NCBI GenBank assembly: GCA_018401875.1
Contig: JAGYJZ010000008.1
Location: forward strand, 67,090 to 131,089
Reading direction: 5' to 3'
Length of the DNA: 64,000 bases
Origin: Salibacteraceae bacterium
Lineage (GTDB): Bacteria > Bacteroidota > Bacteroidia > Flavobacteriales_G > Salibacteraceae
The notes under the pieces are model-generated. The model had not been told where the DNA came from. It searched no databases and saw nothing but the letters and a program-made list of their open reading frames with translations. Positions 2,949-32,148 of this stretch are shown one piece after another. Position numbers and translations under genes: made by a program. Position 1 is the first letter of the stretch, and each line of letters opens with the position of its first letter.

Positions 2949-5324
2949 ATGATGAAACACCTTTTCGGTATTCTTCTAGTGCTGATGGCCTTCACCACCA
3001 TGAGTCAAAATAAAGCAACCATCTCGGGCTATGTGAAAGATGGTGATTCAGGCGAAGGAATGATTTCTGCCACGGTGTTGGTGAAAGAATTAACGCAAGG
3101 AGTTTCAACCAACGAATATGGATTTTATTCGCTTACCCTTGAACCAGGAACATATACCATAGAATGGAGTTTTGTGGGCTTCAACACGGTGTCTGAAACC
3201 ATAGATTTAAAGTCGTCTATCACTCGAAGTGTAGAACTTTCGTTCAGTGATCAAATGCTCAATGAAGTCGTGATAACGGGCGAACGAGAAGATGAAGCCT
3301 TAACAAGTGTGGAGATGAGTGTGGAGAAACTTGATATGGCGCAAGTGAAGAAAATTCCACAGTTGTTGGGCGAAGCTGACATTATTCGATCCATTCAATT
3401 GCTGCCGGGAGTGACAACCGTGGGCGAAGGAGCAACAGGTTTTAATGTGCGCGGTGGCAATATCGATCAAAATTTAATCTTGTTGGATGAAAGCCCCGTG
3501 TTTAGTTCATCGCACTTGTTCGGCTTTTTCTCGGTTTTTAATGCCGATGCCATCAAAGATGCCAAGCTTTATAAAGGTGGTATCCCAGCTAAATTTGGCG
3601 GACGACTTTCTTCTGTGCTCGACATCCGCCAAAAAGACGGCAATATGAAGCAATTGGAAGTGACAGGAGGAGTCGGTTTGCTGTTTAGCAGACTTACCAT
3701 TGAGGCACCGATCATCAAGGACAAGGTTTCGTTTATAGTTTCAGGAAGGCGAAGCTATTTCGACCTCTTTTTTCCATTGGCACCGAACGAAACCATCAAA
3801 GACAGTAAGTTGTTTTTCTACGATTTAAACGGAAAGATAAACTGGAACATCAACGAGAAAAATCGCCTCTATCTTTCGGCTTACAATGGAAACGATGTGT
3901 TTGATCTCAATGGATTGTTCAACACGCGATGGGGAAACCAAACGGCATCGCTGCGATGGAATCACTTATTTTCTGACAAGTTGTTTTCAAACTTCACTGC
4001 GGTATTTAGTGACTATAAGTACAACCTAGGCGCTGATAACAATGGATTTGCATTCGACTGGCAAGCTTCCATTAGAAATTACAGCGGCAAGGCAGACTTT
4101 ACGTATTTTCTAAATCCAAAAAACAAGATTGAGTTTGGCTGGCACAATACCTACTACCAATTTGCGCCAGGTGCGGCAGAAGCGAATTTTGAGGTAAACG
4201 ATCAAGTAGACACCTTCAGATTTGCTGTTGACGAAATCCCTGCCTTTGAAACCGCACTTTATTTGAGCAATGAACAAAAAATTGGGACTCGGCTAACGCT
4301 AGCATACGGATTGCGCTGGAGTGGTTTTGCGCAGATCGGACCGGGTACGGTTTACGAATATCCAAACGATCAACCTGTTGATCCTGATAATCCAACGAAG
4401 GCGGTATCTCCAAGTGATTCAACGGTATACGGCTCGGGCGACATTGTGCGATCTTTTCAAGGTCCTGAGCCCCGCTTTTCGGCCAACTTCCAAATCGATG
4501 AGGTTTCGTCAGTAAAAGCGAGTTATAACCGAATGCGCCAATACATTCACTTGATTTCAAACACCACTGCGGCTACTCCTGTAGACATTTACATGCCATC
4601 AGGAAGGTACATTCAACCAGCACTTGCTGACCAAGTAGGGCTCGGTTATTTCAGAAACTTCTTCAACAACAGCTACGAAAGTTCGGTGGAAGTATACTAT
4701 AAGAAATTTCAAAACTTGGTAGATTACAAAGATGAAGCCGAGCTATTGTTGAATAATACGCTCGAAACAGAACTCTTCACAGGAAATGGACAAGCTTATG
4801 GACTTGAAGTGCAACTGAAAAAGAAGCGAGGTGATTTAACCGGTTGGGTTAGCTATACACTGTCTCGTGTTGAACGCGAAGTGGCCCAAATCAACGGTGG
4901 CGATCCTTATCCAGCCAACTGGGACAAAACGCATGATATAAGTCTAGTATTAAGCTACGATATTACAAAGCGGTTCAATGTATCAACCAACTTTGCATAC
5001 ATGACTGGACGGCCGATCACTTACCCTGACGGAAGATTTCAATGGGGAGGCATAACAGCACCTTTATATACGAATAGAAATGGAGCGCGCACTCCGGCAT
5101 ACCACAGACTGGACATTTCAGGCTACTGGAATCTGCGAGATCCTGAAACACATAAACTTGGATTGGATCTAGCGTTTGGAGCTTACAATTTATACGCACG
5201 TAAAAACCCCTATTCCATCTACTTCCAATCCAGTGACGCAAACCCCGATGTTACGCAAGCTTATCAATTGTCGATTTACGCTACGGTTATTCCTTACGTC
5301 ACCTTGAACTTTAAATTTAAATAA
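2949..5324 (+). CDS. TonB-dependent receptor with an N-terminal carboxypeptidase-regulatory-like domain
   Basis: 791 aa with a signal peptide. ATISGYVKDGDSGEGMISATVLVKE is CarboxypepD_reg-like, and a plug region follows (IRSIQLLPGVTTVGEGATGFNVRGG). The protein ends in an aromatic residue pattern, ...LNFKFK. Confidence 0.85.
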   Translation: MMKHLFGILLVLMAFTTMSQNKATISGYVKDGDSGEGMISATVLVKELTQGVSTNEYGFYSLTLEPGTYTIEWSFVGFNTVSETIDLKSSITRSVELSFSDQMLNEVVITGEREDEALTSVEMSVEKLDMAQVKKIPQLLGEADIIRSIQLLPGVTTVGEGATGFNVRGGNIDQNLILLDESPVFSSSHLFGFFSVFNADAIKDAKLYKGGIPAKFGGRLSSVLDIRQKDGNMKQLEVTGGVGLLFSRLTIEAPIIKDKVSFIVSGRRSYFDLFFPLAPNETIKDSKLFFYDLNGKINWNINEKNRLYLSAYNGNDVFDLNGLFNTRWGNQTASLRWNHLFSDKLFSNFTAVFSDYKYNLGADNNGFAFDWQASIRNYSGKADFTYFLNPKNKIEFGWHNTYYQFAPGAAEANFEVNDQVDTFRFAVDEIPAFETALYLSNEQKIGTRLTLAYGLRWSGFAQIGPGTVYEYPNDQPVDPDNPTKAVSPSDSTVYGSGDIVRSFQGPEPRFSANFQIDEVSSVKASYNRMRQYIHLISNTTAATPVDIYMPSGRYIQPALADQVGLGYFRNFFNNSYESSVEVYYKKFQNLVDYKDEAELLLNNTLETELFTGNGQAYGLEVQLKKKRGDLTGWVSYTLSRVEREVAQINGGDPYPANWDKTHDISLVLSYDITKRFNVSTNFAYMTGRPITYPDGRFQWGGITAPLYTNRNGARTPAYHRLDISGYWNLRDPETHKLGLDLAFGAYNLYARKNPYSIYFQSSDANPDVTQAYQLSIYATVIPYVTLNFKFK

Positions 5325-6323
5325 ATGCTACACACCTTAAAATATACATTTCTGTTGGCATTCATCGCGGTGATAGTGAGTTCATGCCAAGAAGTGATTG
5401 AATTGGACTTGCCACCAAACGAACCTGAGCTGGTTATTGAAGGCTACCTCACCGACCTCGACTTTTTCATTCCGGATCAGGATTTAAACTGTTCAGGAAT
5501 TATTACTATTCCAAAATCAGAGATAGAGTTTGCTGCAAGCTTAGCTGCGGCTGCGCAGTTCCCTATTGACTCCATTGAAAGCGTAGCCGATTACTTTCCA
5601 TTCAATAAAGTCAAGTTGAGCACTACCTCAGATTATTTCAGCAACGCTCCTGCACCCGCTGTAAGTGGAGCTGTGGTGAAGTTGATCAAAAACAATGAGC
5701 TGGTCGAAACTTTGATCGAAGACCAGTCAATTCCGGGCACGTACCGCTTTACACACGATCCTGAAGTTGGGGCGTCTTATCACCTGGAGATTGATGCACT
5801 CGGTAATTTTTATGAAACTGAGCCGCAAGTATACAACGCTGTGCCACCTTTGTTAGGCGTGAATGCAATTTATAACTCAAATTTTCTTCAAGACTCTTGT
5901 GCTTACTATTTAGGCATTGATACGTACGAAAAACCAGGGGTGGGCGATCATTACCGTTGGATGTTTTACATCAACAACAAATATGTAAGCAACCCTTTTT
6001 TCATCAGCATTTTTGACGATGCTCAAATTGACGGGCTGTGCCTATTTGATTTTGATGTTTATGGAAATGAACTCGACTTGGGCGATACAATTGTAGTTTT
6101 TCAAATGCGAACCAACGAAGGCTACAGTAGTTTCATCAATTCACTGAGAAATCAAACAGCATTTGTTGGAAGTCCTTTCGACACTCCTCCCGCGCCAATT
6201 CGTGGAAATTTAAACAATGTAACCACAGGAGAAAAAGCCTTTGGGTATTTTGTAGCTGGCGGCATTTCAGCCAATGTTGGCTTTGTGCCGAATGAAATTC
6301 CTGAGGAAGGCTGCGGAATTTAA
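5325..6323 (+). CDS. DUF4249-like lipoprotein partner of the TonB-dependent receptor
   Basis: Starts immediately after the receptor stop codon. It has a lipoprotein signal (...VIVSSC). A receptor followed by a ~330-aa lipoprotein is the usual Bacteroidota DUF4249 arrangement. The family call is from memory of that synteny. Confidence 0.6.
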   Translation: MLHTLKYTFLLAFIAVIVSSCQEVIELDLPPNEPELVIEGYLTDLDFFIPDQDLNCSGIITIPKSEIEFAASLAAAAQFPIDSIESVADYFPFNKVKLSTTSDYFSNAPAPAVSGAVVKLIKNNELVETLIEDQSIPGTYRFTHDPEVGASYHLEIDALGNFYETEPQVYNAVPPLLGVNAIYNSNFLQDSCAYYLGIDTYEKPGVGDHYRWMFYINNKYVSNPFFISIFDDAQIDGLCLFDFDVYGNELDLGDTIVVFQMRTNEGYSSFINSLRNQTAFVGSPFDTPPAPIRGNLNNVTTGEKAFGYFVAGGISANVGFVPNEIPEEGCGI

Positions 6324-11669: not shown

Positions 11670-11841
11670 GAGTACGATTTTAAAAGATGGCAAATGTAGG
11701 GCATAGAAATGATGTTGAATGTTCTGATTCAAGCTGCCTTCTCTGCATCACAAAATCGAATTCTGAAGATTATAAAAAGATATCTCTTTGATTTTAAGTG
11801 CATTTTGTTTTTTTTTACAGAAATCTTTAAATCTACTCGCT

Positions 11842-12252
11842 ATGAAAAATGTATTGATCCTATTATCCTTTTGCTTCACAGTTGTTACCGGAATCTGTCA
11901 ACCACCCACCACCACCATCTTCAACAACACGAACTGCCCCATGACTGTGACAATGGTTTGCGGTTTTGATGCCGGTTGTGATAGATCATGTTCTTTCAAC
12001 GTCTGTGCGCCTGCAATGATGCCCACACCCGCAATTCCTTGTGCCATCGACTGCCATGAATGGGGTTATGCCATTGTATGCCCCGGATGCCCACCTTGCG
12101 GGGCTCCAGACGATTGTTATACTGTGAGTTGGAATAGTTGTAACGGGTATCCTCAAATTGCAACGGGTACTATTTCTGCTCCGTGCCCCACGTTTTGTCA
12201 GGGTCCTATTTCAGTTGATGCTTCTACGCCTAATCAATTGAACATAAATTGA
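11842..12252 (+). CDS. Small secreted or lipid-anchored cysteine-rich protein, unknown family (136 aa)
   Basis: Signal peptide MKNVLILLSFCFTVVTGIC, followed by 14 Cys in ~117 aa. All 14 are conserved in position with the paralog at 14933-15361. I start the gene at the ATG shared by both copies. Confidence 0.6.
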   Translation: MKNVLILLSFCFTVVTGICQPPTTTIFNNTNCPMTVTMVCGFDAGCDRSCSFNVCAPAMMPTPAIPCAIDCHEWGYAIVCPGCPPCGAPDDCYTVSWNSCNGYPQIATGTISAPCPTFCQGPISVDASTPNQLNIN

Positions 12253-12293: not shown

Positions 12294-14864
12294 ATGCATT
12301 TAAGGCTATTAGAAAGTTTGGGCAGGCAAAAGGTATTGAATCTTCTTGGCCTGCTTTTTTTTGCATGCCTACTTAACACTCAGGCTCAGCAAGTTTATGA
12401 CAGATGGTGTTTTAATCATAACTTGGGAATAGATTTCACCTCTAACGGTGCAGTATTCAACGCAAACAACAGCATTGAATCATTTGAGGGTTGCATTAGC
12501 GTGTGCGATGTTAATGGTAAGCTTTTGTTCTATGCAAGCCCCACCACCGTGTGGGACAGTATGCATAACGTAATGCCCAATGGCGATAGTTTACACGGAC
12601 ATATCTCGGCAAAATTGGGAGTTTTTTCTGTTCCAGTGCCTGAAAGCCCTCAAAGACATTATGTTTTTACCTCTGATGCTGCGGAATCATGGCCCTCTTG
12701 GGAAACGCGATATTCCATAGTAAACATGGCCCTTAATAGCGGACTTGGTGATTTAGAACCAGGAAGCAAGAACACGCTACTTTTTGATCATAATCCACAT
12801 ATAGCAGAATCGGTAATAGGATGCTCGATGGCAGGTCAGACAGATGGCTATTGGATATTCTGCTGCAAGGGAAACGAGATTCATATCTTTAAGATAACTG
12901 CGAACGGCATTTCCAGTCATTCGTCATACCAAACCGATTTAATGCCTATTGGAGCCTCATCCCTCGTTGGAGTTTCGGGCAGTGGAAGGCGCTTCATAAT
13001 GAATGGCTTTATGCAAATAGATTCCGTACTTTGGAGGGGATTCACACTTCTTAAATTTGACCCTGTGTTGGGTGCTTTCAATGATGAATTGTTTATACCA
13101 TTATCAACCAATATAGTCAACACCTATGCTGAATTTAGCCCAAACGAAAAATTTCTATACTTCAATCATTTCGAATCCGTCCAAAACATTTCATATGCTC
13201 TAAGCCTCAACTTGAACATATGGGATGAAGAAATCATTCTGAATTCAATAGATACTTTAGGAGTGTTAGATAGCAATCGCTTGTTTCAATTTAAGCTTGG
13301 TGTCAACGACACTATTTATATCAACAGGGATTTGGATTCCAATATGTCTATCGCCACCATTGGCAATCCAGATCAGGTGAATGGGCCTGCTGTGTTTGAT
13401 CCTATTTCGTTCCCTGTTCAATTAAACATCTTTGGTCAACATGGCCCTGGATTGCCCAATAACCTGCAATACGGCAAACCCGACTTTGAAGCGCGCTATA
13501 CCTGCCTTGGTGACAGCACATGGTTTGTGTTTTTTGGATTAGCAGATTCTCTAAAATGGAATTTCAATGACCCCAACGCGGGAATGTTGAATTTTTCCAT
13601 GCTTGAAAATCCATATTTCTTGTTCTCATATCCTGATACATTCTCTGTTGAGTTAATCGTGTATTACAAAAACAACATTGATACCATCAACCACGAAGTA
13701 ATCATAAAAGACACTCTTCCTGATCACATTTTTGTGTTGGAAGATGCTTTCTTGTGCGGAAACGCTGACTCTGTTGTCTTTGACTTTAGCGCATTAAATC
13801 CAACAGAAGTGCTTTGGAGTGATAGTGTAAACACCTTAACCCGAATAATAAAAGATACAGGTAACTACGCTGTACTTATTGCAAACGAGTGTGATACGAT
13901 ACGTGATACTCTCGAGGTGATTTATCAACTAAGACCAAACCTCTCATTAAAAGACACAACCATATGCGCTGATTTTCAACTAGTTTCAGGTGTAAACAAC
14001 CCTCCCACAAACAATATTTGGTCAACGGGCGACACTACCGCTTCCATTACCATCGATACTTCCCTTTCGCCCGATTTAAGTCCATTGGATATTTGGCTAA
14101 CTGCCACCAACGTCTGCGGCACTGTAAGCGATACGATGACCATTGACTTTTTACCAATTCCAAATGCGTCATTACCCGCAGACTCTTCGCATTGCCTCGA
14201 TCAGTCATTTTTTATTTTTCATGAAAACTTTGACAACGTCAACTATTTGTGGAGCGACAGCACTTCGGAAGGACGGTTTAGAATTGATTCCACCCAATCT
14301 GTGTGGCTTATAGCTGAAAATATTTGCGGTGTAGACCGAGACACGTTTAACGTAGAGTTTTACCCCGAAATTAAACCTGAACATGGAGAAGACACAGTCA
14401 TCTGCAATGGCGAAATACTGGTATTGGACGCTACATGGCCAGGCGCCAACTATGCATGGAACACAGGAAGTACAGGCAATTCGATCACTGTTTCTGAAAC
14501 CGACAATTACATCGTCACCATCAGCAGTCCGCCATGCCAGAAAGTAGTATCGCGCACCGTGTCATTCACTGAAGAAGCTTGTAACGAATCGGGATGCAAG
14601 TTTTCGATTCCCAACGTTTTTTCTCCCAACGCAGACGGAATCAACGATGCATTGCGCATCACCAACACCTGCGAACATTTAAATTTCACGGTGTTCATCT
14701 ATAACCGCTGGGGACAATTGGTATTCAGGCAACAAAACAGCTCATCCGGAGCTTCGTGGGACGGAACCATCAATGGAGAAGCTGCAACAGAAGGCACTTA
14801 CTTTGTGGTAGCTATGCACAGCGAAGAAAAAACGCAACGCGCTGCGGTGAGTTTAATGAGGTAA
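12294..14864 (+). CDS. Large secreted protein with a gliding-motility-associated / T9SS type B C-terminal sorting domain (856 aa)
   Basis: Signal peptide ending TQAQ, then an N-terminal ~450-aa domain starting QQVYDRWCF. Four ~65-aa Cys-bracketed repeats follow. The C-terminus is CKFSIPNVFSPNADGINDALRI...FIYNRWGQLVF...GTYFVV. Confidence 0.8.
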   Translation: MHLRLLESLGRQKVLNLLGLLFFACLLNTQAQQVYDRWCFNHNLGIDFTSNGAVFNANNSIESFEGCISVCDVNGKLLFYASPTTVWDSMHNVMPNGDSLHGHISAKLGVFSVPVPESPQRHYVFTSDAAESWPSWETRYSIVNMALNSGLGDLEPGSKNTLLFDHNPHIAESVIGCSMAGQTDGYWIFCCKGNEIHIFKITANGISSHSSYQTDLMPIGASSLVGVSGSGRRFIMNGFMQIDSVLWRGFTLLKFDPVLGAFNDELFIPLSTNIVNTYAEFSPNEKFLYFNHFESVQNISYALSLNLNIWDEEIILNSIDTLGVLDSNRLFQFKLGVNDTIYINRDLDSNMSIATIGNPDQVNGPAVFDPISFPVQLNIFGQHGPGLPNNLQYGKPDFEARYTCLGDSTWFVFFGLADSLKWNFNDPNAGMLNFSMLENPYFLFSYPDTFSVELIVYYKNNIDTINHEVIIKDTLPDHIFVLEDAFLCGNADSVVFDFSALNPTEVLWSDSVNTLTRIIKDTGNYAVLIANECDTIRDTLEVIYQLRPNLSLKDTTICADFQLVSGVNNPPTNNIWSTGDTTASITIDTSLSPDLSPLDIWLTATNVCGTVSDTMTIDFLPIPNASLPADSSHCLDQSFFIFHENFDNVNYLWSDSTSEGRFRIDSTQSVWLIAENICGVDRDTFNVEFYPEIKPEHGEDTVICNGEILVLDATWPGANYAWNTGSTGNSITVSETDNYIVTISSPPCQKVVSRTVSFTEEACNESGCKFSIPNVFSPNADGINDALRITNTCEHLNFTVFIYNRWGQLVFRQQNSSSGASWDGTINGEAATEGTYFVVAMHSEEKTQRAAVSLMR

Positions 14865-14932
14865 TAAACTAAACCCTTGATTATTAGTATTTTTTGCTTT
14901 TTTTTTGTGGGAAATCTTTAAATCTACTCGCT

Positions 14933-15361
14933 ATGAAAAACGTATTAATTATCCTAACTTTTTGCTTTTGCGCCACCTACGGAATATGTCAGGCGCCTCC
15001 CATGAACATCAATAACACATTGGGTTGCGACATGCTCGTCAGGCTAAACTGCGGCAATGATGTTGGTTGTGACGCAGCTTGCTCAGTGACTATTTGCATT
15101 CCAGCAATGGGCGCAGTTCTTACTCCTCCATGCTCAATTGATTGCCAAGAATGGGGTATGGCTATGGTTTGTCCGGCAGACCCATGTCCGAACATTTGCG
15201 GTAATACAGCCGATGGAAGCTGTTATATCGTGAGCTGGAACAATTGCAATTCTTATCCAACCATAGCCACAGGCAACATTAATCCCCCTTGCCCAACCTC
15301 CTGCTTGGGAACGATCACGGTTGATGCTTCAATGCCAAACACATTAAACATCACGCCTTAA
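14933..15361 (+). CDS. Small cysteine-rich secreted protein, paralog of 11842-12252 (142 aa)
   Basis: Signal peptide MKNVLIILTFCFCATYGIC, followed by the same 14-Cys scaffold (..IDCQEWG.A.VCP..CY.VSWN.CN.YP.IATG..PCPT.C.G.I.VDAS.PN.LNI). Confidence 0.6.
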   Translation: MKNVLIILTFCFCATYGICQAPPMNINNTLGCDMLVRLNCGNDVGCDAACSVTICIPAMGAVLTPPCSIDCQEWGMAMVCPADPCPNICGNTADGSCYIVSWNNCNSYPTIATGNINPPCPTSCLGTITVDASMPNTLNITP

Positions 15362-15390: not shown

Positions 15391-17963
15391 ATGCACAGCG
15401 GTTTTTCAGAGTCACTATATCATCCAAAACACATTATGTTTATTGGTTTATTGATTCTAAACTGCATGAACACAGTTCGGGCTCAACAAGTTTTTGACCG
15501 GTGGTGTTTTTCTTACAACATGGGCATTGACTTTACGTCTTCAGGCGCAGTATTTAACCCCGGAAACAATATAGCAGCACCTGAAGGATGCATAAGTGTC
15601 TGCGATGACACCGGAAATCTTTTGTTGTATGCCAGCCCCACAACGGTGTGGGACAGTGCACACAACGTAATGCCCAATGGCGACAGCCTGGACGGACATA
15701 TATCCGCAAAACTCGGTGTGTTTTCAGCACCCGTTCCTGGGAGCCCACAAAGGCACTATGTGTTTACGAACGATGCTGTTGAAACTTATCCCTTCGAAAT
15801 GGAAACCCGCTATTCCATCGTAAACATGACGCTCAATGGTGGACTCGGGGATGTGGAGTCAGGAAGCAAAAACACACTGCTATTTGATTATGATCCTCAT
15901 GTGTCTGAAGTAATTACGGGATGTGCTATCGCGGGTCAAACCGAAGGCTATTGGTTGTTTTTGAGAAAGGCAAACGAAATACACGTTTATAAAATCACCT
16001 CAGCAGGGATCAACAGCCATACCTCGTATCAAGCGAATTTGATAATTGCAGTTTCGCACCTAATTGGGCTTCCGGGAAGCGGCAGATACTTTTATATGGA
16101 TGGTATTAAGCATCTAGATTCCATGCCTTGGAGAGGCATAATGCTTGCAAAGTTTGATCCCGTAAATGGTACGTTCAGTGATGAATTGTTCATCCCAATT
16201 ACCAATAATTTAAGCAATGGTGCGGTTGTGTTTGCAGAAACTAGCCCAAACGAACGATACGTATACCTAAGTCATTTCGTATTTGCAGAAAACAATACCT
16301 ATGTACTAAGTTTAGACTTGGAAACTTGGGATCAAGACAGTATTATTCATTCCATCGATACTGTTGGGGTTTTGCATAACAATCGATTATTTGAGTTCAA
16401 ATTAGGCATCAACGATACTATTTACATCAATCGTGATTTGGATTCAAACCTGGCCTTGGCCACCATCGGAAATCCAGATCAAATAAATGGGCCTGCCGTA
16501 TTTGAGCCTGCAGCTTTTCCAGTGCAGTTAAACGCTTTGAGCCAGCATGGCCAAGGCCTACCAAACAAGCTCAACTACGGCAAACCCGACTTTGAAGCGC
16601 GCTATACCTGCCTTGGTGACAGCACATGGTTTGTGTTTTTTGGATTGGCAGATTCTCTAAAATGGAATTTCAATGACCCCAACGCGGGAATGTTGAATTT
16701 TTCCACGCTTGAAAATCCATATTTCTTATTCTCCCAGCCAGACGCATTCGCTGTTGAGTTAATCGCGTATTACAAAAACAACATCGATACCATCTCGCAC
16801 GAAGTAATCATCACAGACACTCTTCCTGATCAGATTTTTGAGTCGCGAGACGGCTTTTTGTGCGGAACTAATGACTCGATTAAATTTGACTTCAGCACAC
16901 TAAATCCAACAATGGTGCTTTGGAGTGATAGTGTAAACACAATAAATAGATCCATCACCGACACAGGGGTATTCTCCGTAGTTATTGCAAACGAATGTGA
17001 CACATTGCGAGATACGCTGGTTGTGCGTTTCGCCACTGAACCGAGCATCACTCTAACTGACACCACTTTGTGTGAGGGTTCGCAACTGATTTTAGAAATG
17101 GGCGATTCCACAGGTAATAACCTCTGGTCTACAGGTGACACCAACGCCTCTATTATCATCGATACTTCGCTTTCGCCCGATTTAAGTCCATTGGAAATTT
17201 GGCTGACAGCCAGCAACGCCTGCGGCACTGTAAGCGATACGATGACCGTAAGTTTTTTACCGATGCCGATAGCTGACCTTCCGCGTGATTCGGTGCACTG
17301 CCTTGAAGCGGCTTTTTACATTTCTCACAGCAATACACAAAACGTGAATTATTGGTGGAACGACAGCACTTCGGATGAGCAAATCTTGATCAACACTACT
17401 GCAACAGTATGGCTAATCGCTGAAAATGAATGCGGAATGGACGCTGATACATTCAGTGTAAACTTTTATCCTGAAATAAAATCAGAACTCGGAGAAGATA
17501 CTTTGGTCTGTATTAGTGAAAGCGTATTGCTTGACGCGTCATGGCCGGGAGCAAACTTCGTGTGGAGCACCGGAAATACGGACGACTCCATCACCGTATC
17601 TGAATCTGATACGTACATCGTCACCATCAGCAGTCCGCCATGCCAGAAAGTAGTATCGCGCACCGTGTCATTCACTGAAGAAGCTTGTAACGAATCGGGA
17701 TGCAAGTTTTCGATTCCCAACGTTTTTTCTCCCAACGCAGATAGGTCCAACGTGCCCATCATATCTTCACCGAACATTTAAATTTCACGGTGTTCATCTA
17801 TAACCGCTGGGGTCAATTGGTATTCAGTCAACAAAACAGCTCATCCGGAGCTTCTTGGGACGGAACCATCAATGGAGAAGCTGCAACAGAAGGCACTTAC
17901 TTTGTGGTAGCTATGCACAGCGAAGAAAAAACGCAACGCGCTGCGGTGAGTTTGGTTAGATAA
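15391..17963 (+). pseudogene. Paralog of the T9SS type-B protein with its C-terminal sorting domain disrupted (7-nt net deletion and a scrambled patch)
   Basis: The ORF stops at 17781 (..FSPNADRSNVPIISSPNI*). The rest of the sorting domain (EHLNFTVFIYNRWGQLVFSQQ...AAVSLVR*) continues in another frame over 17772-17963. Sequence on either side of the 30-nt patch (17742-17771) is 97-100% identical to copy 1. Confidence 0.6.
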
Positions 17964-20517: not shown

Positions 20518-21426
20518 TCAGTTCTTGACAATTCTTACCACATGTGCCTTTCCTGTATGATTGAGATGAAGAAAGTAAATCCCCTGGCTCAAATGAGAGA
20601 CATCAAAAAAACCAGCTGCGGGCGAATCCAGTTGTATTGACTTGCCGTGAACATCTAACAGTTTATCAATTTGAATCGCAGTATTCTGAGCAAAGTTTAG
20701 CTGAAACTTGTCTTCAATAGGGTTAGGGAAAATGATCAATTCTGGTCTATTTGAGGTCATCTCTTCAACTTGAAGTGGATAAACAAAAATTGATTCGTTT
20801 GAAACAGTGGGCATGAAGCAATTCATTGAATCATAGACTACAACAGCATAACTTGACTTGGTAGAGCCGTATTGACAAAAAATACGAGGCTTAGCGCTAC
20901 TTGCAGGATCAATAAAATCAGTGCTATCTGTCCACTGCCACTTCACCAAGGGGTAGCTCGAAGATGCCACGGGAGTGATTTTAATGGTATCTCCATGTTC
21001 AGCGTAAACGTGGACACTTCCCAGATGTATAAAAAATGTGGAATGTGTAAACTTCATAGAATCCATGGCCACCATTCCGTTGCTATCGGTCACCTCAAGA
21101 TACAATTTCACACTACCGTTCAGCTCATTTGATTCAATCGCACTTACAATGAAAGGATTGGCAGACGCGGTGTCATCCAATATATCACCGGCCCAATAGT
21201 TATGGATTACAGATACCACAGGTTCATTTATAAACCATCTATATGTATAAGGAGGAGTGCCACCTGTAACAGTGGGCAAACCTCCGACCGAAAGATAAAC
21301 GGAGTCATAGGTCACGCCATATGGACAAAAATGTTTGTCTTCGCCAGCATCAACATGCAGAGGCCCTTGTGCCCAAGAAAATGTATTGAAGAACAATACT
21401 CCAGCGATGAAAAGCAATTTCTTCAT
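20518..21426 (-). CDS. Secreted protein with a T9SS type A (Por) C-terminal sorting domain
   Basis: Signal peptide ..FSWAQ. The C-terminus is IIFPNPIEDKFQLNF...DVSHLSQGIYFLHLNHTGKAHVVRIVKN. The N-terminal module (DAGEDKHFC...GGTPPYTYRW) is shared with 22327-23256. Confidence 0.7.
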   Translation of the reverse strand: MKKLLFIAGVLFFNTFSWAQGPLHVDAGEDKHFCPYGVTYDSVYLSVGGLPTVTGGTPPYTYRWFINEPVVSVIHNYWAGDILDDTASANPFIVSAIESNELNGSVKLYLEVTDSNGMVAMDSMKFTHSTFFIHLGSVHVYAEHGDTIKITPVASSSYPLVKWQWTDSTDFIDPASSAKPRIFCQYGSTKSSYAVVVYDSMNCFMPTVSNESIFVYPLQVEEMTSNRPELIIFPNPIEDKFQLNFAQNTAIQIDKLLDVHGKSIQLDSPAAGFFDVSHLSQGIYFLHLNHTGKAHVVRIVKN

Positions 21427-28867: not shown

Positions 28868-30760
28868 TTATTTTTTTGGAGATTGGATTCCTCTGTTTTG
28901 AGCCATTTTTTCGAGCCTTTGTTGAAGGCCTGATTTTTTCGTGGGCTTCTTTTTATTCGCTTGAATTTTTGCGTGAATCTTGTCTTCGTCAATGAAGAAT
29001 CGCTTGATAATGAATTGCTGCAACATCGTGATCACGTTGGCAGAAAGGTAATAGTAGCTCAACCCTGACGAATAACTATTAAAGAAGAACAAGAGCATGA
29101 ATGGCATCAAGTAAATCATCATTTTCATCTGTGGCATTTGAGCGTTGGCACCGCCTGACATGTCCATGTTGTATTTCGAGTAGAAGAACGTTGAAATGGC
29201 CATCAAAATGGTGAATAAACTCACGTGGTCGCCATAGAAAGGAATTTCAAAAGGCAGTTGCATGATCGAGTCGTAAGAACTCAAATCTTCTGCCCATAAA
29301 AACGATTCTTGCCTCAGCTCGATGCTCGCGGGAAAGAATCGAAACATGGCGTATAATATCGGCAACTGCAAAAGCATCGGGACACATCCCGCCATCGGAT
29401 TTACGCCCGCTTGGCGATACAAGCCCATCACGGCCTGCTGCTTCTGCATGGCGTCTTTATTTTCGAACTTCTTGTTCAGCTCGTCAATCTCAGGTTTCAA
29501 TACGCGCATTCTGGCGCTGGAAACATAATTTCTCCAAGTAAGAGGAAACAAGAGCAACTTAATAATGATGGTCAAAATCAGGATGATGATTCCGTAGCCC
29601 AAAGTCGTGTATGTCTCAAGGAAATTGAAGATCGGGATCACCAACCAACGGTTTACCCAACCAAAAATGGTCCATCCCAAATCAATTTGATCTTCCAGAC
29701 CAATGCCCATATTGTTGAGGGTTTGGTAGTGGTTTGGACCGATGTAAAATTTAAATGGAACCGATGGGTCGCGTTCATTTCCAAACTCTAAGCCCAACGA
29801 TGCAGAAAGGCCTTTTGTGTATTTTTCATCCGTCAACTCAATGGTTTCCACTGAAGCACCTTCTTTGCTAAACCCTTTATCAGAAATAAGAGCCGCAGAG
29901 AAAAACTGCTGCTTGAAAGCCACCCATTGCACAGATGCTTCGAGCACTTCAGCTTCGTAGCTGGTTTCAGAAACATAATCGGCATCATCGGTCATGTACT
30001 TGTAATACATGGTCGTTTTCATCTGCTCTTGTTCGCGGCTCTTTTCATGAAATGGCGCGTTCATACTCCAATTCAATTCAAACAAATCATCGCTCGAACG
30101 AAGTAAATTATCCATTCCCACCACCGTCACTTCAGCTTGCACCATATAAGATTTGCCTTCTTCGATGGAATAAGTCAATTCTAAATACTGGCTGTTGTTG
30201 TCGCCATAAATGCGATAAACAGCTGTCGATTCTGTCATCTCTCCCGGCACCTCTTCAAAGTAGAGTTCAGCGCTTGAAAGCTCAGTGTTTTGATCGAGCC
30301 AGAACTTTAAATTGAAGGAAGAGGTTTCTTTGTCAAACAGAAACAGCGGCATTGAATCGTAGGTTACATATTCAACCAACTCTGCCGTAACCGGAGCTGC
30401 ACCTTTATTCGAAAGGGTAAACTTGACGAAATCGTTTTGAATGGTATGCAGTTTTTCTTCACCGCTTGCTGCTGCAGCAAAGGATCCAAAGCGTTGCTTG
30501 TTTTTGATTTTGTCTAAGGAATCCTGGAGGGCTTGAGCCACTGAATCAAGTTGCACGTCATTCCGCTTCACAGTATCAGCGGAAGCAATGTTCGCTTCCG
30601 TCATTCGCGCAGCGCGATCTTCAGCTGCCTGCACGGCCGCAATGCTGTCTTGAACGCGGTTTTGAGCTTCAATCTCCTCAGACGATGGTTGCATCCAAAA
30701 GCTATATCCAATCAGAATAGCCCCAATTAAAACCAACCCTGTTAACGTATTTCTATCCAT
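28868..30760 (-). CDS. yidC: Membrane protein insertase YidC
   Basis: 630 aa with the N-terminal anchor MDRNTLTGLVLIGAILIGYSFW and a large periplasmic domain. The C-terminal 60-kDa insertase core includes GCVPMLLQLPILYAMF. Confidence 0.9.
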   Translation of the reverse strand: MDRNTLTGLVLIGAILIGYSFWMQPSSEEIEAQNRVQDSIAAVQAAEDRAARMTEANIASADTVKRNDVQLDSVAQALQDSLDKIKNKQRFGSFAAAASGEEKLHTIQNDFVKFTLSNKGAAPVTAELVEYVTYDSMPLFLFDKETSSFNLKFWLDQNTELSSAELYFEEVPGEMTESTAVYRIYGDNNSQYLELTYSIEEGKSYMVQAEVTVVGMDNLLRSSDDLFELNWSMNAPFHEKSREQEQMKTTMYYKYMTDDADYVSETSYEAEVLEASVQWVAFKQQFFSAALISDKGFSKEGASVETIELTDEKYTKGLSASLGLEFGNERDPSVPFKFYIGPNHYQTLNNMGIGLEDQIDLGWTIFGWVNRWLVIPIFNFLETYTTLGYGIIILILTIIIKLLLFPLTWRNYVSSARMRVLKPEIDELNKKFENKDAMQKQQAVMGLYRQAGVNPMAGCVPMLLQLPILYAMFRFFPASIELRQESFLWAEDLSSYDSIMQLPFEIPFYGDHVSLFTILMAISTFFYSKYNMDMSGGANAQMPQMKMMIYLMPFMLLFFFNSYSSGLSYYYLSANVITMLQQFIIKRFFIDEDKIHAKIQANKKKPTKKSGLQQRLEKMAQNRGIQSPKK

Positions 30761-30856
30761 TTCTAATGCTCGCTAATTTGAGGCGGCAAAGGTATGTTTT
30801 CACCCTTAGTTGAACATTGATTTCATGGATAAGTGGAAAAGAAGCGCCAAGACTGG

Positions 30857-30912
30857 AAAAAAAAGAACCGAGACGGCATCGAATCTTGCAGATTTCGTGC
30901 CTGTCTCGGTTC
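30857..30912 (-). terminator. Rho-independent terminator downstream of the M42 peptidase gene
   Basis: On the minus strand, the hairpin gaaccgagacaggca...tgccgtctcggttc is followed by U8. Confidence 0.55.
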
Positions 30913-30933
30913 AAATGAAAAACTGATTTTCAG

Positions 30934-32055
30934 TTATTTAATGTATCTGAAATCGTGGTTGTTTTCAATTTTCAACAACGATTGATAGATCAATCGAATC
31001 ACGCTTTCTACGTCATTGCGATGCACCATTTCAACCGTGGTGTGCATATAGCGCAGCGGCAATGATATCAATGCCGAAGCCACTCCACCCGCGCCAAACG
31101 CAAATGCGTCAGTATCGGTGCCGGTGTATCTGCTGGCAGCCATGCGCTGGAAGTCGATGTTGTTGTCTTTGGCGGCTCCAATGATTAATTTCAACAAGTT
31201 GTTCTGCACCGCGGGCGCATAGCTCAACACAGGGCCATCGCCCGATTTGAAATCGCCTTGCTCGAGTTTGTTCATCATCGGTGTGGTGGTGTCATGACAC
31301 ACATCAGTTACGATGGCTACGTTCGGACGCAAGCGCTCAACGATCATCTCAGCACCGCGCAGGCCAATTTCTTCCTGCACCGAGTTGACGATGTACAATC
31401 CAAACGGCAATTTCTTTTTATTCTCTTTGAGCATGCGTGCCACTTCAGCGATCATGAATCCTCCGATGCGGTTGTCGAGCGCTCGACCCACAAAATGGAC
31501 CTTGTTAAGTACGATAAACTCGTCAGGATAAGTAATCACACAACCAACGTGAACGCCCATTTCTTCGACTTCCTTTTTTGATCGAGCACCGCAGTCTAAC
31601 CAAATGTTTGAAACCTTAGGAATGTCTTCTTTTTCGGATTTGCGCACGTGAATCGCTGGCCAGCCAAACACCGCTGTTACCGGACCTTTGTCTGTATGAA
31701 TGATCACTCGCTTTGAAGGTGCTATCTGGTGGTCAGAACCTCCGTTGCGCTTTACGTAAATCATTCCGTCATCGGTTATGTAGTGCACAAACCATGAAAT
31801 CTCATCGGCATGCGCCTCAATCACCACTTTAAATTCAGCATCAGGATTGATAATGCCCACTGCTGTTCCGTAAGTATCAACGATGTAATCGTCAATGTAA
31901 GGCTTCATGTATTCGAGCCAAATTTTTTGTCCTTCGGCTTCGAATCCTGTGGGCGAAGGGTTATTTAAATACTTTTCTAAAAATTTCATCGATTTGTCCG
32001 TCAACACTTTCGGTGCTGATGCCTTGGCGCTCTTTGCTTTATCTGTCTTTGCCAT
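30934..32055 (-). CDS. M42 family metallopeptidase (glutamyl aminopeptidase / FrvX-like)
   Basis: The motifs AHADEISW, GRALDNRIGG, VQEEIGLRGA and the C-terminal ..PLRYMHTTVE are typical of M42. I chose the start at MAKTDKAK. Confidence 0.85.
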   Translation of the reverse strand: MAKTDKAKSAKASAPKVLTDKSMKFLEKYLNNPSPTGFEAEGQKIWLEYMKPYIDDYIVDTYGTAVGIINPDAEFKVVIEAHADEISWFVHYITDDGMIYVKRNGGSDHQIAPSKRVIIHTDKGPVTAVFGWPAIHVRKSEKEDIPKVSNIWLDCGARSKKEVEEMGVHVGCVITYPDEFIVLNKVHFVGRALDNRIGGFMIAEVARMLKENKKKLPFGLYIVNSVQEEIGLRGAEMIVERLRPNVAIVTDVCHDTTTPMMNKLEQGDFKSGDGPVLSYAPAVQNNLLKLIIGAAKDNNIDFQRMAASRYTGTDTDAFAFGAGGVASALISLPLRYMHTTVEMVHRNDVESVIRLIYQSLLKIENNHDFRYIK

Positions 32056-32148
32056 ATAATTTTTGAATTGAACTCCGAAAGTAAGAAGCCTCACCGACTT
32101 CTGAACTACTTGCGTTCATATATGTTTAAGTTGCAGATTTGCACACGT

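What the first reader, a model, noticed from the sequence alone, without database searches (positions are those of the whole stretch)
11842..12252. New-looking 14-cysteine small protein family (two paralogs, 11842-12252 and 14933-15361)
After the signal peptide (..G-I-C-Q) both paralogs keep an identical cysteine scaffold while much of the rest has diverged:
C-x7-C-x5-C-x3-C-x4-C-x(11-12)-C-x3-C-x9-C-x(2-3)-C-x(2-3)-C-x(5-7)-C-x8-C-x(16)-C-x3-C
Conserved islands are IDC[HQ]EWG, CY.VSWN.CN.YP.IATG, PCPT.C.G.I.VDAS.PN.LNI.

About 12% Cys in a ~120-aa exported protein implies a knotted, multi-disulfide fold of the kind seen in protease inhibitors, toxins, defensin-like peptides or receptor-binding modules. 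The Cys directly after the hydrophobic stretch could alternatively be a lipidation site. I do not recognise the pattern as any named domain.
Basis: partly seen in the sequence, partly recalled or inferred. Interest (0 to 1): 0.7.

Follow-up and report, generated by a model that had tools for sequence, protein, structure and literature searches.

The report
New disulfide-rich partner of surface adhesin
Two real genes encode small exported proteins held together by seven predicted disulfide bonds; they belong to a very rare, unnamed family with no detectable known relative, almost always encoded next to a cell-surface adhesin of marine Bacteroidota, and their function is still unknown.

Summary
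S1 (11842-12252) and S2 (14933-15361) are paralogs, 56% identical, each with 14 aligned cysteines in a mature protein of 117-123 aa. Both are genuine genes: pN is 0.26 against pS 0.87. An exhaustive HMM search of 1.84 billion protein representatives found only about 15 relatives, all 130-156 aa, and 13 of 16 aligned members have exactly 14 Cys. Pfam, NCBIfam, PADLOC, PHROGs and PDB sequence searches gave no hit. A confident AlphaFold model (pLDDT 91, all-beta) has no Foldseek match in PDB or BFVD.

The Cys just before the mature Gln is not a lipobox. Other members have A, S, G or T at that position, which fits a signal peptidase I site under the Bacteroidetes "Q-rule".

Each small gene sits 29-41 nt upstream of an ~850-aa T9SS type-B cargo built from a beta-propeller head, a PKD domain, GhpA/SprB-type Ig repeats and a CHU_C domain. 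This pair recurs in eight independent contexts, down to 27% adhesin identity, and was duplicated as a unit twice. Some lineages instead carry arrays of 2-4 small genes without the adhesin.

Best reading: a dedicated binding partner or accessory subunit of the adhesin. This is inferred, not shown.

The parts
11780..11841 (+). Conserved 5' region of S1: a CTTTGATT...TTTTG block, a poly-T tract and GAAATCTTTAAATCTACTCGCT directly before the ATG. Presumed promoter and leader.
   Evidence: The alignment of the S1, S2 and L007 upstream regions shows a block of about 70 nt conserved in all three. Function is inferred.
11842..12252 (+). S1 gene, 136 aa. Signal peptide at 11842-11898 (MKNVLILLSFCFTVVTGIC). 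Mature protein at 11899-12249: 117 aa, N-terminal Gln, 14 Cys, pI about 4.1.
   Evidence: The identical protein occurs in two other samples (L001, L002). AlphaFold2 gives pLDDT 91.2 and pTM 0.85, with nine beta strands.
12294..14864 (+). B1, 856 aa, a T9SS type-B cargo. Order of parts: signal peptide, 7-bladed beta-propeller-like head, PKD domain, four GhpA/SprB-type Ig-like repeats, CHU_C type-B C-terminal sorting domain. It starts 41 nt after S1, with no terminator-like site on the + strand between them.
   Evidence: CHU_C PF13585 at 1e-19 and TIGR04131 at 7.5e-16. Family profile against PDB: GhpA 3.6e-216; 1l0q propeller plus PKD 1e-13. AlphaFold2 pLDDT 83 and Foldseek top hits to GhpA. No terminator.
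14872..14932 (+). Conserved 5' region of S2, the same block as upstream of S1.
14933..15361 (+). S2 gene, 142 aa. Signal peptide at 14933-14989. Mature protein at 14990-15358: 123 aa, 14 Cys. It is closer to the L007 (Salibacteraceae MAG) copy (72.5% identity) than to S1 (56%).
15391..17781 (+). B2, 796 aa as read, paralog of B1 (68% identity). Its type-B CTD is interrupted by small deletions that cause a frameshift and a stop.
   Evidence: No CHU_C hit for this ORF.
17790..17963 (+). Remainder of the B2 type-B CTD, readable in another frame. About 95% identical to the B1 CTD at the protein level.
   Evidence: CHU_C 1.3e-10. tblastn 95% identity. DNA alignment.

Best explanation
S1 and S2 are real genes. 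Each encodes a Sec-exported protein that is cleaved by signal peptidase I before a Gln (Bacteroidetes Q-rule). The mature protein is about 120 aa, strongly acidic and nearly free of Lys and Arg. It folds as one compact all-beta domain locked by seven disulfides.

They found a very rare family restricted, as far as seen, to marine Bacteroidota close to Flavobacteriales and Salibacteraceae. The family has no detectable sequence or structural relative.

The small gene is transcribed with, or divergently from, a SprB/GhpA-like surface adhesin that leaves the cell through the type IX secretion system (type-B CTD).

The most likely role is a dedicated binding partner or accessory subunit of that adhesin. 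It would be made in the periplasm and bind the adhesin, probably at the propeller head. It would then either hold the adhesin in a secretion-competent or inactive state, or travel out with it and sit on it at the cell surface.

Shown: the gene is real; it is exported via signal peptidase I and is not a lipoprotein; the 14-Cys scaffold is conserved; it is novel to the available libraries; the genetic coupling to the adhesin is conserved.

Inferred: disulfide formation, physical binding to the adhesin, and final location.
For: Gene reality:
- pN 0.26 against pS 0.87.
- Identical protein in two other samples.
- 16 significant hits, of which about 15 are genuine relatives, all 130-156 aa, among 1.84 billion representatives.

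Export and cleavage:
- An N-terminal hydrophobic segment followed by [A/S/G/T/C]-Q in all 15 aligned members that have a complete N-terminus, matching the Q-rule (PMC5837995, PMC10653852).

Scaffold and fold:
- 14 Cys in 13 of 16 members. The two members that lack cysteines each lack two (12 Cys), and one member has 16.
- AlphaFold2 pLDDT 91.2; all five models are 87 or higher.

Novelty:
- No hit in Pfam, NCBIfam, PADLOC, PHROGs, PDB sequence or profile searches, or Foldseek against PDB and BFVD.

Coupling to the adhesin:
- S lies directly upstream on the same strand, with gaps of 7-70 nt, in the window (twice), L007, L008-10 (twice), L094, L095 and L017.
- S is divergent from a B homolog in L004 and L096/97.
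- Flanking genes differ between these loci, so B is the only constant neighbour.
- The S-B unit was tandemly duplicated independently in the window lineage (S 56%, B 68%) and in L008-10 (S 80%, B 85%).
- There is no + strand terminator between S and B.
Against: - No direct evidence of binding. Multimer prediction was not possible with these tools.
- Some lineages carry 2-4 tandem S genes with no B homolog adjacent (L005, L003, L011/12), so S can apparently act, or at least persist, without a neighbouring B.
- Of 80 other B-family loci in species-representative genomes, 79 have no S gene, and several close ones are B-B tandems. B therefore does not generally need S.
- S has no T9SS C-terminal domain, so by default it would stay in the periplasm. 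Seven disulfides seem excessive for a periplasmic chaperone.
- S evolves somewhat faster than B, which is also typical of stand-alone interface proteins such as inhibitors, immunity proteins and ligands.
Confidence: 0.45

Rival explanations
1. S is a stand-alone exported binding protein, such as a periplasmic or extracellular inhibitor, an immunity-like protein or a ligand-binding protein. It works independently of the adhesin, and the adjacency reflects only shared regulation or shared ancestry of the locus.
For: - Arrays of 2-4 diverged S paralogs occur without an adjacent B homolog: L005 (four copies, next to a histidine kinase and a LytTR regulator), L003 and L011/12.
- S diverges faster than B in both duplicated modules.
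- A hyper-stable multi-disulfide domain is typical of inhibitors and of proteins exposed to harsh environments (general knowledge).
Against: - Adjacency to a B homolog holds in 8 of 11 informative contexts, across B identities down to 27% and in different genomic neighbourhoods. The unit was also duplicated twice as a pair. That is hard to explain without functional coupling.
- No similarity to any known inhibitor or immunity family.
Confidence: 0.3
2. S is itself secreted across the outer membrane by a signal not yet recognised. One candidate is the conserved C-terminal strand ...L-(N/T)-I-N-COOH, acting as a minimal T9SS or other sorting signal. S would then act extracellularly, for example as a surface coat or adhesive factor.
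For: - The C-terminus ends in xLxIN or a close variant in most members.
- Seven disulfides and almost no Lys or Arg suggest an extracellular, protease-exposed life (inference).
- In every locus long enough to show neighbouring genes except L011/L012, S lies next to T9SS cargo genes, including the type-A cargo in L005.
Against: - No hit to type A, B or C T9SS sorting-domain models even at E = 10.
- Known CTDs are Ig-like domains of about 70-100 aa, not a single strand (PMC11285876).
- In the model the conserved C-terminus is simply the last beta strand of the fold.
Confidence: 0.12
3. S is a lipoprotein, acylated on the Cys that follows the hydrophobic stretch.
For: S1 and S2 have G-I-C directly after the hydrophobic region.
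Against: - That Cys is absent from all other family members, which have A, S, G or T before an invariant-like Gln. This includes the 72%-identical ortholog P0003, which has G-V-S-Q.
- Ile at -1 is not a lipobox residue.
Confidence: 0.03
4. S is a cationic defensin-like or bacteriocin-like antimicrobial peptide or knottin.
For: High Cys content and a signal peptide.
Against: - Mature size is about 120 aa, pI about 4.1, with 0-3 Lys+Arg.
- It is predicted to be a nine-strand beta domain.
- No immunity, transporter or maturation genes are nearby.
Confidence: 0.04

Closest known systems
PorP/SprF-like accessory proteins encoded next to T9SS type-B CTD cargos (e.g. SprF with SprB, GhpB with GhpA)
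   Same: Both are small accessory genes genetically coupled to an individual type-B CTD cargo and presumed specific for it (PMC9143113; bioRxiv 10.1101/2024.01.29.577165).
   Different: PorP/SprF proteins are outer-membrane beta-barrels, usually encoded downstream of the cargo. S is a 117-aa soluble, disulfide-rich beta domain, usually encoded upstream of the adhesin (divergently in two contexts), and has no sequence or profile similarity to any known family. No PorP-like gene lies in the module.
GhpA grappling-hook protein and SprB gliding adhesin (for the partner protein B, not for S)
   Same: The B-family profile matches the GhpA Ig-like repeats and type-B CTD at E = 3.6e-216. The top Foldseek hits for the B1 model are GhpA fragments.
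   Different: B is about 850 aa with only about four repeats and a beta-propeller head, against 5,898 aa and 52 repeats in GhpA. S itself shows no similarity to GhpA or to any B domain.
Small secreted cysteine-rich proteins of eukaryotes (hydrophobins, thaumatin-like proteins, cerato-platanins, insect antifreeze proteins)
   Same: Signal peptide, size of roughly 100-200 aa, many conserved disulfides with variable loops, and expansion into tandem paralog arrays.
   Different: No sequence or fold match. Thaumatin and the elicitor MoHrip2 appear only as noise-level Foldseek hits (E of 0.9 or higher, TM 0.33 or lower). S is bacterial, and its Cys pattern is different.
Periplasmic Ig-like chaperones of adhesive fibres (PapD/FimC type)
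   Same: Sec-exported beta-sandwich proteins encoded beside adhesin genes. This is an analogy for the proposed mechanism only.
   Different: PapD-type chaperones have two Ig domains (about 220 aa) and few cysteines, and they belong to the chaperone-usher pathway. There is no similarity to S.

Membership tests
T9SS cargo (type A, B or C C-terminal sorting domain), asked of S1 and S2 | C-terminal sorting domain of about 70-100 aa matching PF18962/TIGR04183 (type A), PF13585/TIGR04131 (type B) or NF033708 (type C) | tested here: not met
   No hit for S1, S2 or any of 17 family members, even at E = 10.
T9SS type-B cargo, asked of neighbour B1 | Signal peptide plus a C-terminal CHU_C / TIGR04131 domain | tested here: met
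   PF13585 at 9.8e-20 (70.9 bits, cut-off 27). TIGR04131 at 7.5e-16 (58.1 bits, cut-off 35). In B2 the domain is split by a frameshift.
Bacterial lipoproteins (signal peptidase II substrates) | Conserved lipobox with an invariant Cys at +1 of the mature protein | tested here: not met
   The Cys is present only in S1 and S2. It is replaced by A, S, G or T in 14 other members. Position -1 relative to that Cys is Ile.
Bacteroidetes signal peptidase I substrates obeying the Q-rule | Signal peptide whose cleavage exposes an N-terminal Gln | tested here: met
   The motif [A/S/G/T/C]-Q follows the hydrophobic region in all 15 of 16 aligned members that have a complete N-terminus. The rule is described in PMC5837995. 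Cleavage itself and pyroglutamate formation were not tested experimentally.
Knottin, defensin or other mini disulfide-rich peptides | Mature domain under about 60 aa, usually cationic, with 3-4 disulfides forming the core | tested here: not met
   The mature protein is 112-128 aa, pI about 4.1, with 14 Cys. The model is a nine-strand beta domain.
PorP/SprF-like partners of type-B CTD cargos | Outer-membrane beta-barrel protein of the PorP/SprF family encoded beside the cargo gene | tested here: not met
   S has no Pfam or NCBIfam hit and is a small soluble domain. The module holds no other gene.
Any curated protein family or solved fold | A significant sequence, profile or structure match | tested here: not met
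   Searched without a hit: Pfam, NCBIfam, PADLOC, PHROGs, PDB by phmmer and hmmsearch, and Foldseek against PDB and BFVD. AlphaFold DB and ESM Atlas could not be searched here.
Seven-disulfide fold | All 14 Cys paired in the folded protein | not testable with these tools
   Model coordinates are not returned, so no disulfide map could be made. Indirect support: the Cys count is even and conserved, and the two members with fewer Cys each lack two (12 Cys).

The most novel reading that the evidence does not exclude
S is a protein without a sorting domain that reaches the cell surface by riding out of the periplasm bound to its cognate type-B adhesin. That would be hetero-complex, 'piggy-back' secretion through the T9SS translocon. 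At the surface S would form the hyper-stable, fast-evolving functional tip of a mini grappling-hook or SprB-like appendage. The S-only arrays in other lineages would then be interchangeable tips. S would also represent a new protein fold.
Probability: 0.15. Interest if true: 0.8.

Novelty: categorically new. Interest (0 to 1): 0.6.

Why it matters
A confidently predicted, heavily disulfide-bonded domain with no relative in Pfam, NCBIfam, PDB or BFVD is a candidate new fold. It is also unusual for a Gram-negative bacterium to make a 120-aa protein with seven disulfides.

The conserved pairing with a SprB/GhpA-like T9SS adhesin is a concrete, testable lead to an accessory factor for type-B cargos other than PorP/SprF. 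How such cargos are handled, anchored and given specificity is still open (PMC9143113, PMC12618676).

If S is co-displayed with the adhesin, that would show that the T9SS can export hetero-complexes. If S is an inhibitor or immunity-like protein instead, it defines a new class of those.

The practical limits are that the family is tiny, found only in uncultured or poorly studied marine Bacteroidota, and no function has been demonstrated.

Tried and rejected
- The word-indexed homolog search with S1 found only S1 itself. With the family alignment it found only 5 members. The exhaustive HMM search was needed to see the family.
- One hit in that exhaustive search, P0015 (1,356 aa), is a spurious repetitive ORF.
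- Single-protein scans of metagenome contigs and viral contigs found no relatives, so there is no sign of a phage origin.
- Profile-profile comparison of the S family with the B family aligned only the signal peptides. S is therefore not a split-off domain of the adhesin.
- The S-family HMM against all six-frame ORFs of 80 further B-homolog loci gave only the degenerate L017 copy. A screen of the same loci for any Cys-rich ORF of 70-220 aa returned only off-frame noise.
- dN/dS for S1 against S2 could not be computed because synonymous sites are saturated. Only pN much lower than pS can be stated.
- A disulfide map could not be derived because model coordinates are not returned. Cys-loss covariation across members was too sparse and too dependent on the alignment to assign pairs.
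- The sigma-70 promoter scan found nothing above shuffled expectation. It is not suited to Bacteroidota promoters in any case.
- Rejected readings: lipoprotein, defensin-like peptide and chance ORF (see the rival explanations).

Full report
**1. Observation**

The region holds two + strand ORFs, S1 (11842-12252, 136 aa) and S2 (14933-15361, 142 aa). They are 56% identical, E = 3e-49.

Both begin MKNVLI..., have a hydrophobic stretch and then G-I-C-Q. Each mature protein (117 and 123 aa) has 14 Cys.

The genes are under purifying selection: pN = 0.26 against a saturated pS = 0.87. The S1 protein is found with an identical sequence in two other sequencing samples.

**2. A real but very rare family**

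- The word-indexed search found only S1 itself.
- An exhaustive HMMER search with the S1+S2 profile against 1.84 billion representatives gave 16 hits at E below 1e-3. One of them is a spurious repeat ORF. The others are all 130-156 aa.
- In the family alignment the 14 Cys columns are conserved: 6 invariant, 7 at 90% or more, and 13 of 16 members have exactly 14 Cys in the mature part. The two members that lack cysteines each lack two (12 Cys), and one member has 16.
- The mature proteins are acidic (pI about 4.1) with only 0-3 Lys+Arg.
- Most end in ...L-(N/T)-I-N-COOH.
- More divergent relatives with fewer Cys exist (L011/L012, L017).

**3. Export route**

The Cys that precedes the mature Gln in S1 and S2 is not conserved. 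The other members have A, S, G or T there, including the 72%-identical ortholog P0003 (G-V-S-Q). The following Gln is present in all 15 aligned members that have a complete N-terminus.

This is the signature of signal peptidase I substrates in Bacteroidetes, the 'Q-rule', in which cleavage exposes Gln and it is cyclised to pyroglutamate (PMC5837995, PMC10653852). The lipoprotein alternative is therefore rejected.

S has no T9SS sorting domain of any type, even at E = 10.

**4. No known relative**

- Pfam, NCBIfam, PADLOC and PHROGs gave nothing for S1, S2 or any family member.
- PDB searches by sequence and by family profile gave nothing.
- AlphaFold2 on a 17-sequence alignment gave a confident model of mature S1: mean pLDDT 91.2, pTM 0.85, all five models 87 or higher. 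It is all-beta, with nine strands.
- Foldseek against PDB gave a best hit of E = 0.14 and TM 0.47. Against BFVD the best was E = 0.08 and TM 0.47. These are generic beta-sandwich noise.
- AlphaFold DB could not be searched, so 'new fold' remains provisional.

**5.

Each small gene is followed, after 41 and 29 nt and with no terminator-like site on the + strand, by a large gene.

- B1 (12294-14864, 856 aa) carries a T9SS type-B sorting domain (CHU_C 1e-19, TIGR04131 7.5e-16).
- B2 (15391-17781) is 68% identical to B1.

The whole S-B module is therefore tandemly duplicated. About 70 nt upstream of S1, S2 and the L007 ortholog is conserved.

A profile of the B family matches three kinds of solved structure:
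- the grappling-hook protein GhpA of Aureispira at E = 3.6e-216, over its Ig-like repeats and CTD;
- a YVTN beta-propeller plus PKD surface-layer protein (1l0q, 1e-13);
- PKD domains.

The B1 model (pLDDT 83) has GhpA fragments as its top Foldseek hits. B is therefore a small SprB/GhpA-like surface adhesin: a propeller head, a PKD domain, about four Ig-like repeats and a type-B CTD. GhpA and SprB are T9SS-secreted surface appendages (bioRxiv 10.1101/2024.01.29.577165).

**6. The S-B pair is conserved**

S lies directly upstream of a full-length B homolog, on the same strand, in these loci:
- L007, a Salibacteraceae MAG (B 67% identical);
- L008-10 (two S-B units, 7-nt gaps, B 27%);
- L094 (B 32%);
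- L095 (B 28%);
- L017, Flavobacteriales UBA4422, where the S copy is degenerate and frameshifted.

S is divergently oriented next to a B homolog in L004 (33%) and L096/97 (30%).

The surrounding genes differ between loci:
- In L007 the module lies between YidC and an M42 peptidase, which are adjacent in the window.
- L094 shares the window's downstream TauE-rhodanese-Crp-EI24 genes.

B is thus the only constant neighbour. The unit was duplicated independently in two lineages: the window (S 56%, B 68%) and L008-10 (S 80%, B 85%).

Against an obligatory link:
- L005 has four tandem S paralogs between a type-A T9SS cargo and a histidine-kinase/LytTR pair.
- L003 has two tandem copies and L011/12 two or three, none with an adjacent B.
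- Of 80 further B-family loci from species-representative genomes, 79 lack S; only L017 has it.

S is not a diverged B domain.

**7. Interpretation**

Established:
- a genuine, exported, non-lipoprotein, acidic, 14-Cys all-beta protein family;
- no detectable known relative;
- genetic coupling to a T9SS type-B adhesin in marine Bacteroidota.

Inferred:
- The 14 Cys form seven disulfides in the periplasm.
- S physically partners the adhesin, either as a periplasmic holder or capping factor, or as a co-displayed subunit.

I put about 0.45 on the partner model. I put about 0.3 on a stand-alone binding, inhibitor or immunity-like protein, which the S-only arrays and the faster divergence favour. 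I put about 0.12 on secretion by an unrecognised signal. The lipoprotein and defensin-like readings get only residual weight.

The most novel reading not excluded is piggy-back export of S on B through the T9SS.

**8. Comparison with known systems**

The nearest functional analogy is the cognate PorP/SprF-type accessory gene that accompanies many type-B cargos (PMC9143113). S fails every defining feature of that family: it is not an outer-membrane barrel, it shows no homology, and it is usually encoded upstream of the cargo rather than downstream. It resembles eukaryotic small secreted Cys-rich proteins only in general style. It cannot be filed under any existing family.

**9. Verdict**

The family is new, and its conserved pairing with an adhesin is the main finding. 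The function is not demonstrated. Interest is moderate to high for T9SS and protein-fold specialists, limited by the family's rarity and the lack of any experimental handle.

Noticed in passing
window 17742-17790 (B2), compared with 14641-14680 (B1): The type-B sorting domain of B2 is broken by small deletions (6 + 1 nt) and substitutions in the DGINDALRITN segment. This causes a frameshift and a stop at 17781. The rest of the domain is intact in another frame (17790-17963). B2 may be a pseudogene, a variant without a sorting domain, or an assembly error.
   Followed up: partly
window 13530-13680 and 14580-14864, compared with the matching parts of B2: These stretches are 90-95% identical at the DNA level between the two B copies, against 53-84% elsewhere. 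They are much closer to each other than either is to the L007 ortholog. This looks like gene conversion between the tandem copies.
   Followed up: partly
window 28868-32094 (YidC, M42 peptidase), compared with L007: In the related Salibacteraceae MAG the S-B module sits between YidC and the M42 peptidase, within otherwise conserved synteny (Crp, EI24, DUF6438, YidC). In the window those two genes are adjacent and the modules lie 17 kb away, between purB and TauE. The two-gene module has therefore moved, or been gained or lost, as a unit.
   Followed up: partly
L005 2145-8024: Four tandem, diverged S paralogs (28-43% identical to each other) lie directly upstream of a Y_Y_Y/His_kinase sensor and a LytTR response regulator, and downstream of a lectin-like type-A T9SS cargo. 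This may be a regulated S-only locus.
   Followed up: no
L017 5440-5885: A frameshifted, Cys-poor S-like sequence (7 Cys) still sits just upstream of a B homolog in Flavobacteriales UBA4422. It may be a decaying copy, or the fold may tolerate loss of its disulfides.
   Followed up: partly
L013-L016: B-family adhesin genes commonly occur as back-to-back tandem pairs without any small gene between them. Tandem duplication is a general habit of this adhesin family.
   Followed up: no
window 2949-6323 and 20518-21426: Other envelope genes in the window: a TonB-dependent receptor with a CarboxypepD_reg domain, followed by a DUF4249 protein; and a 301-aa type-A T9SS cargo on the minus strand. They are unrelated to the finding, but they confirm a host with a T9SS, i.e. 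Bacteroidota.
   Followed up: no
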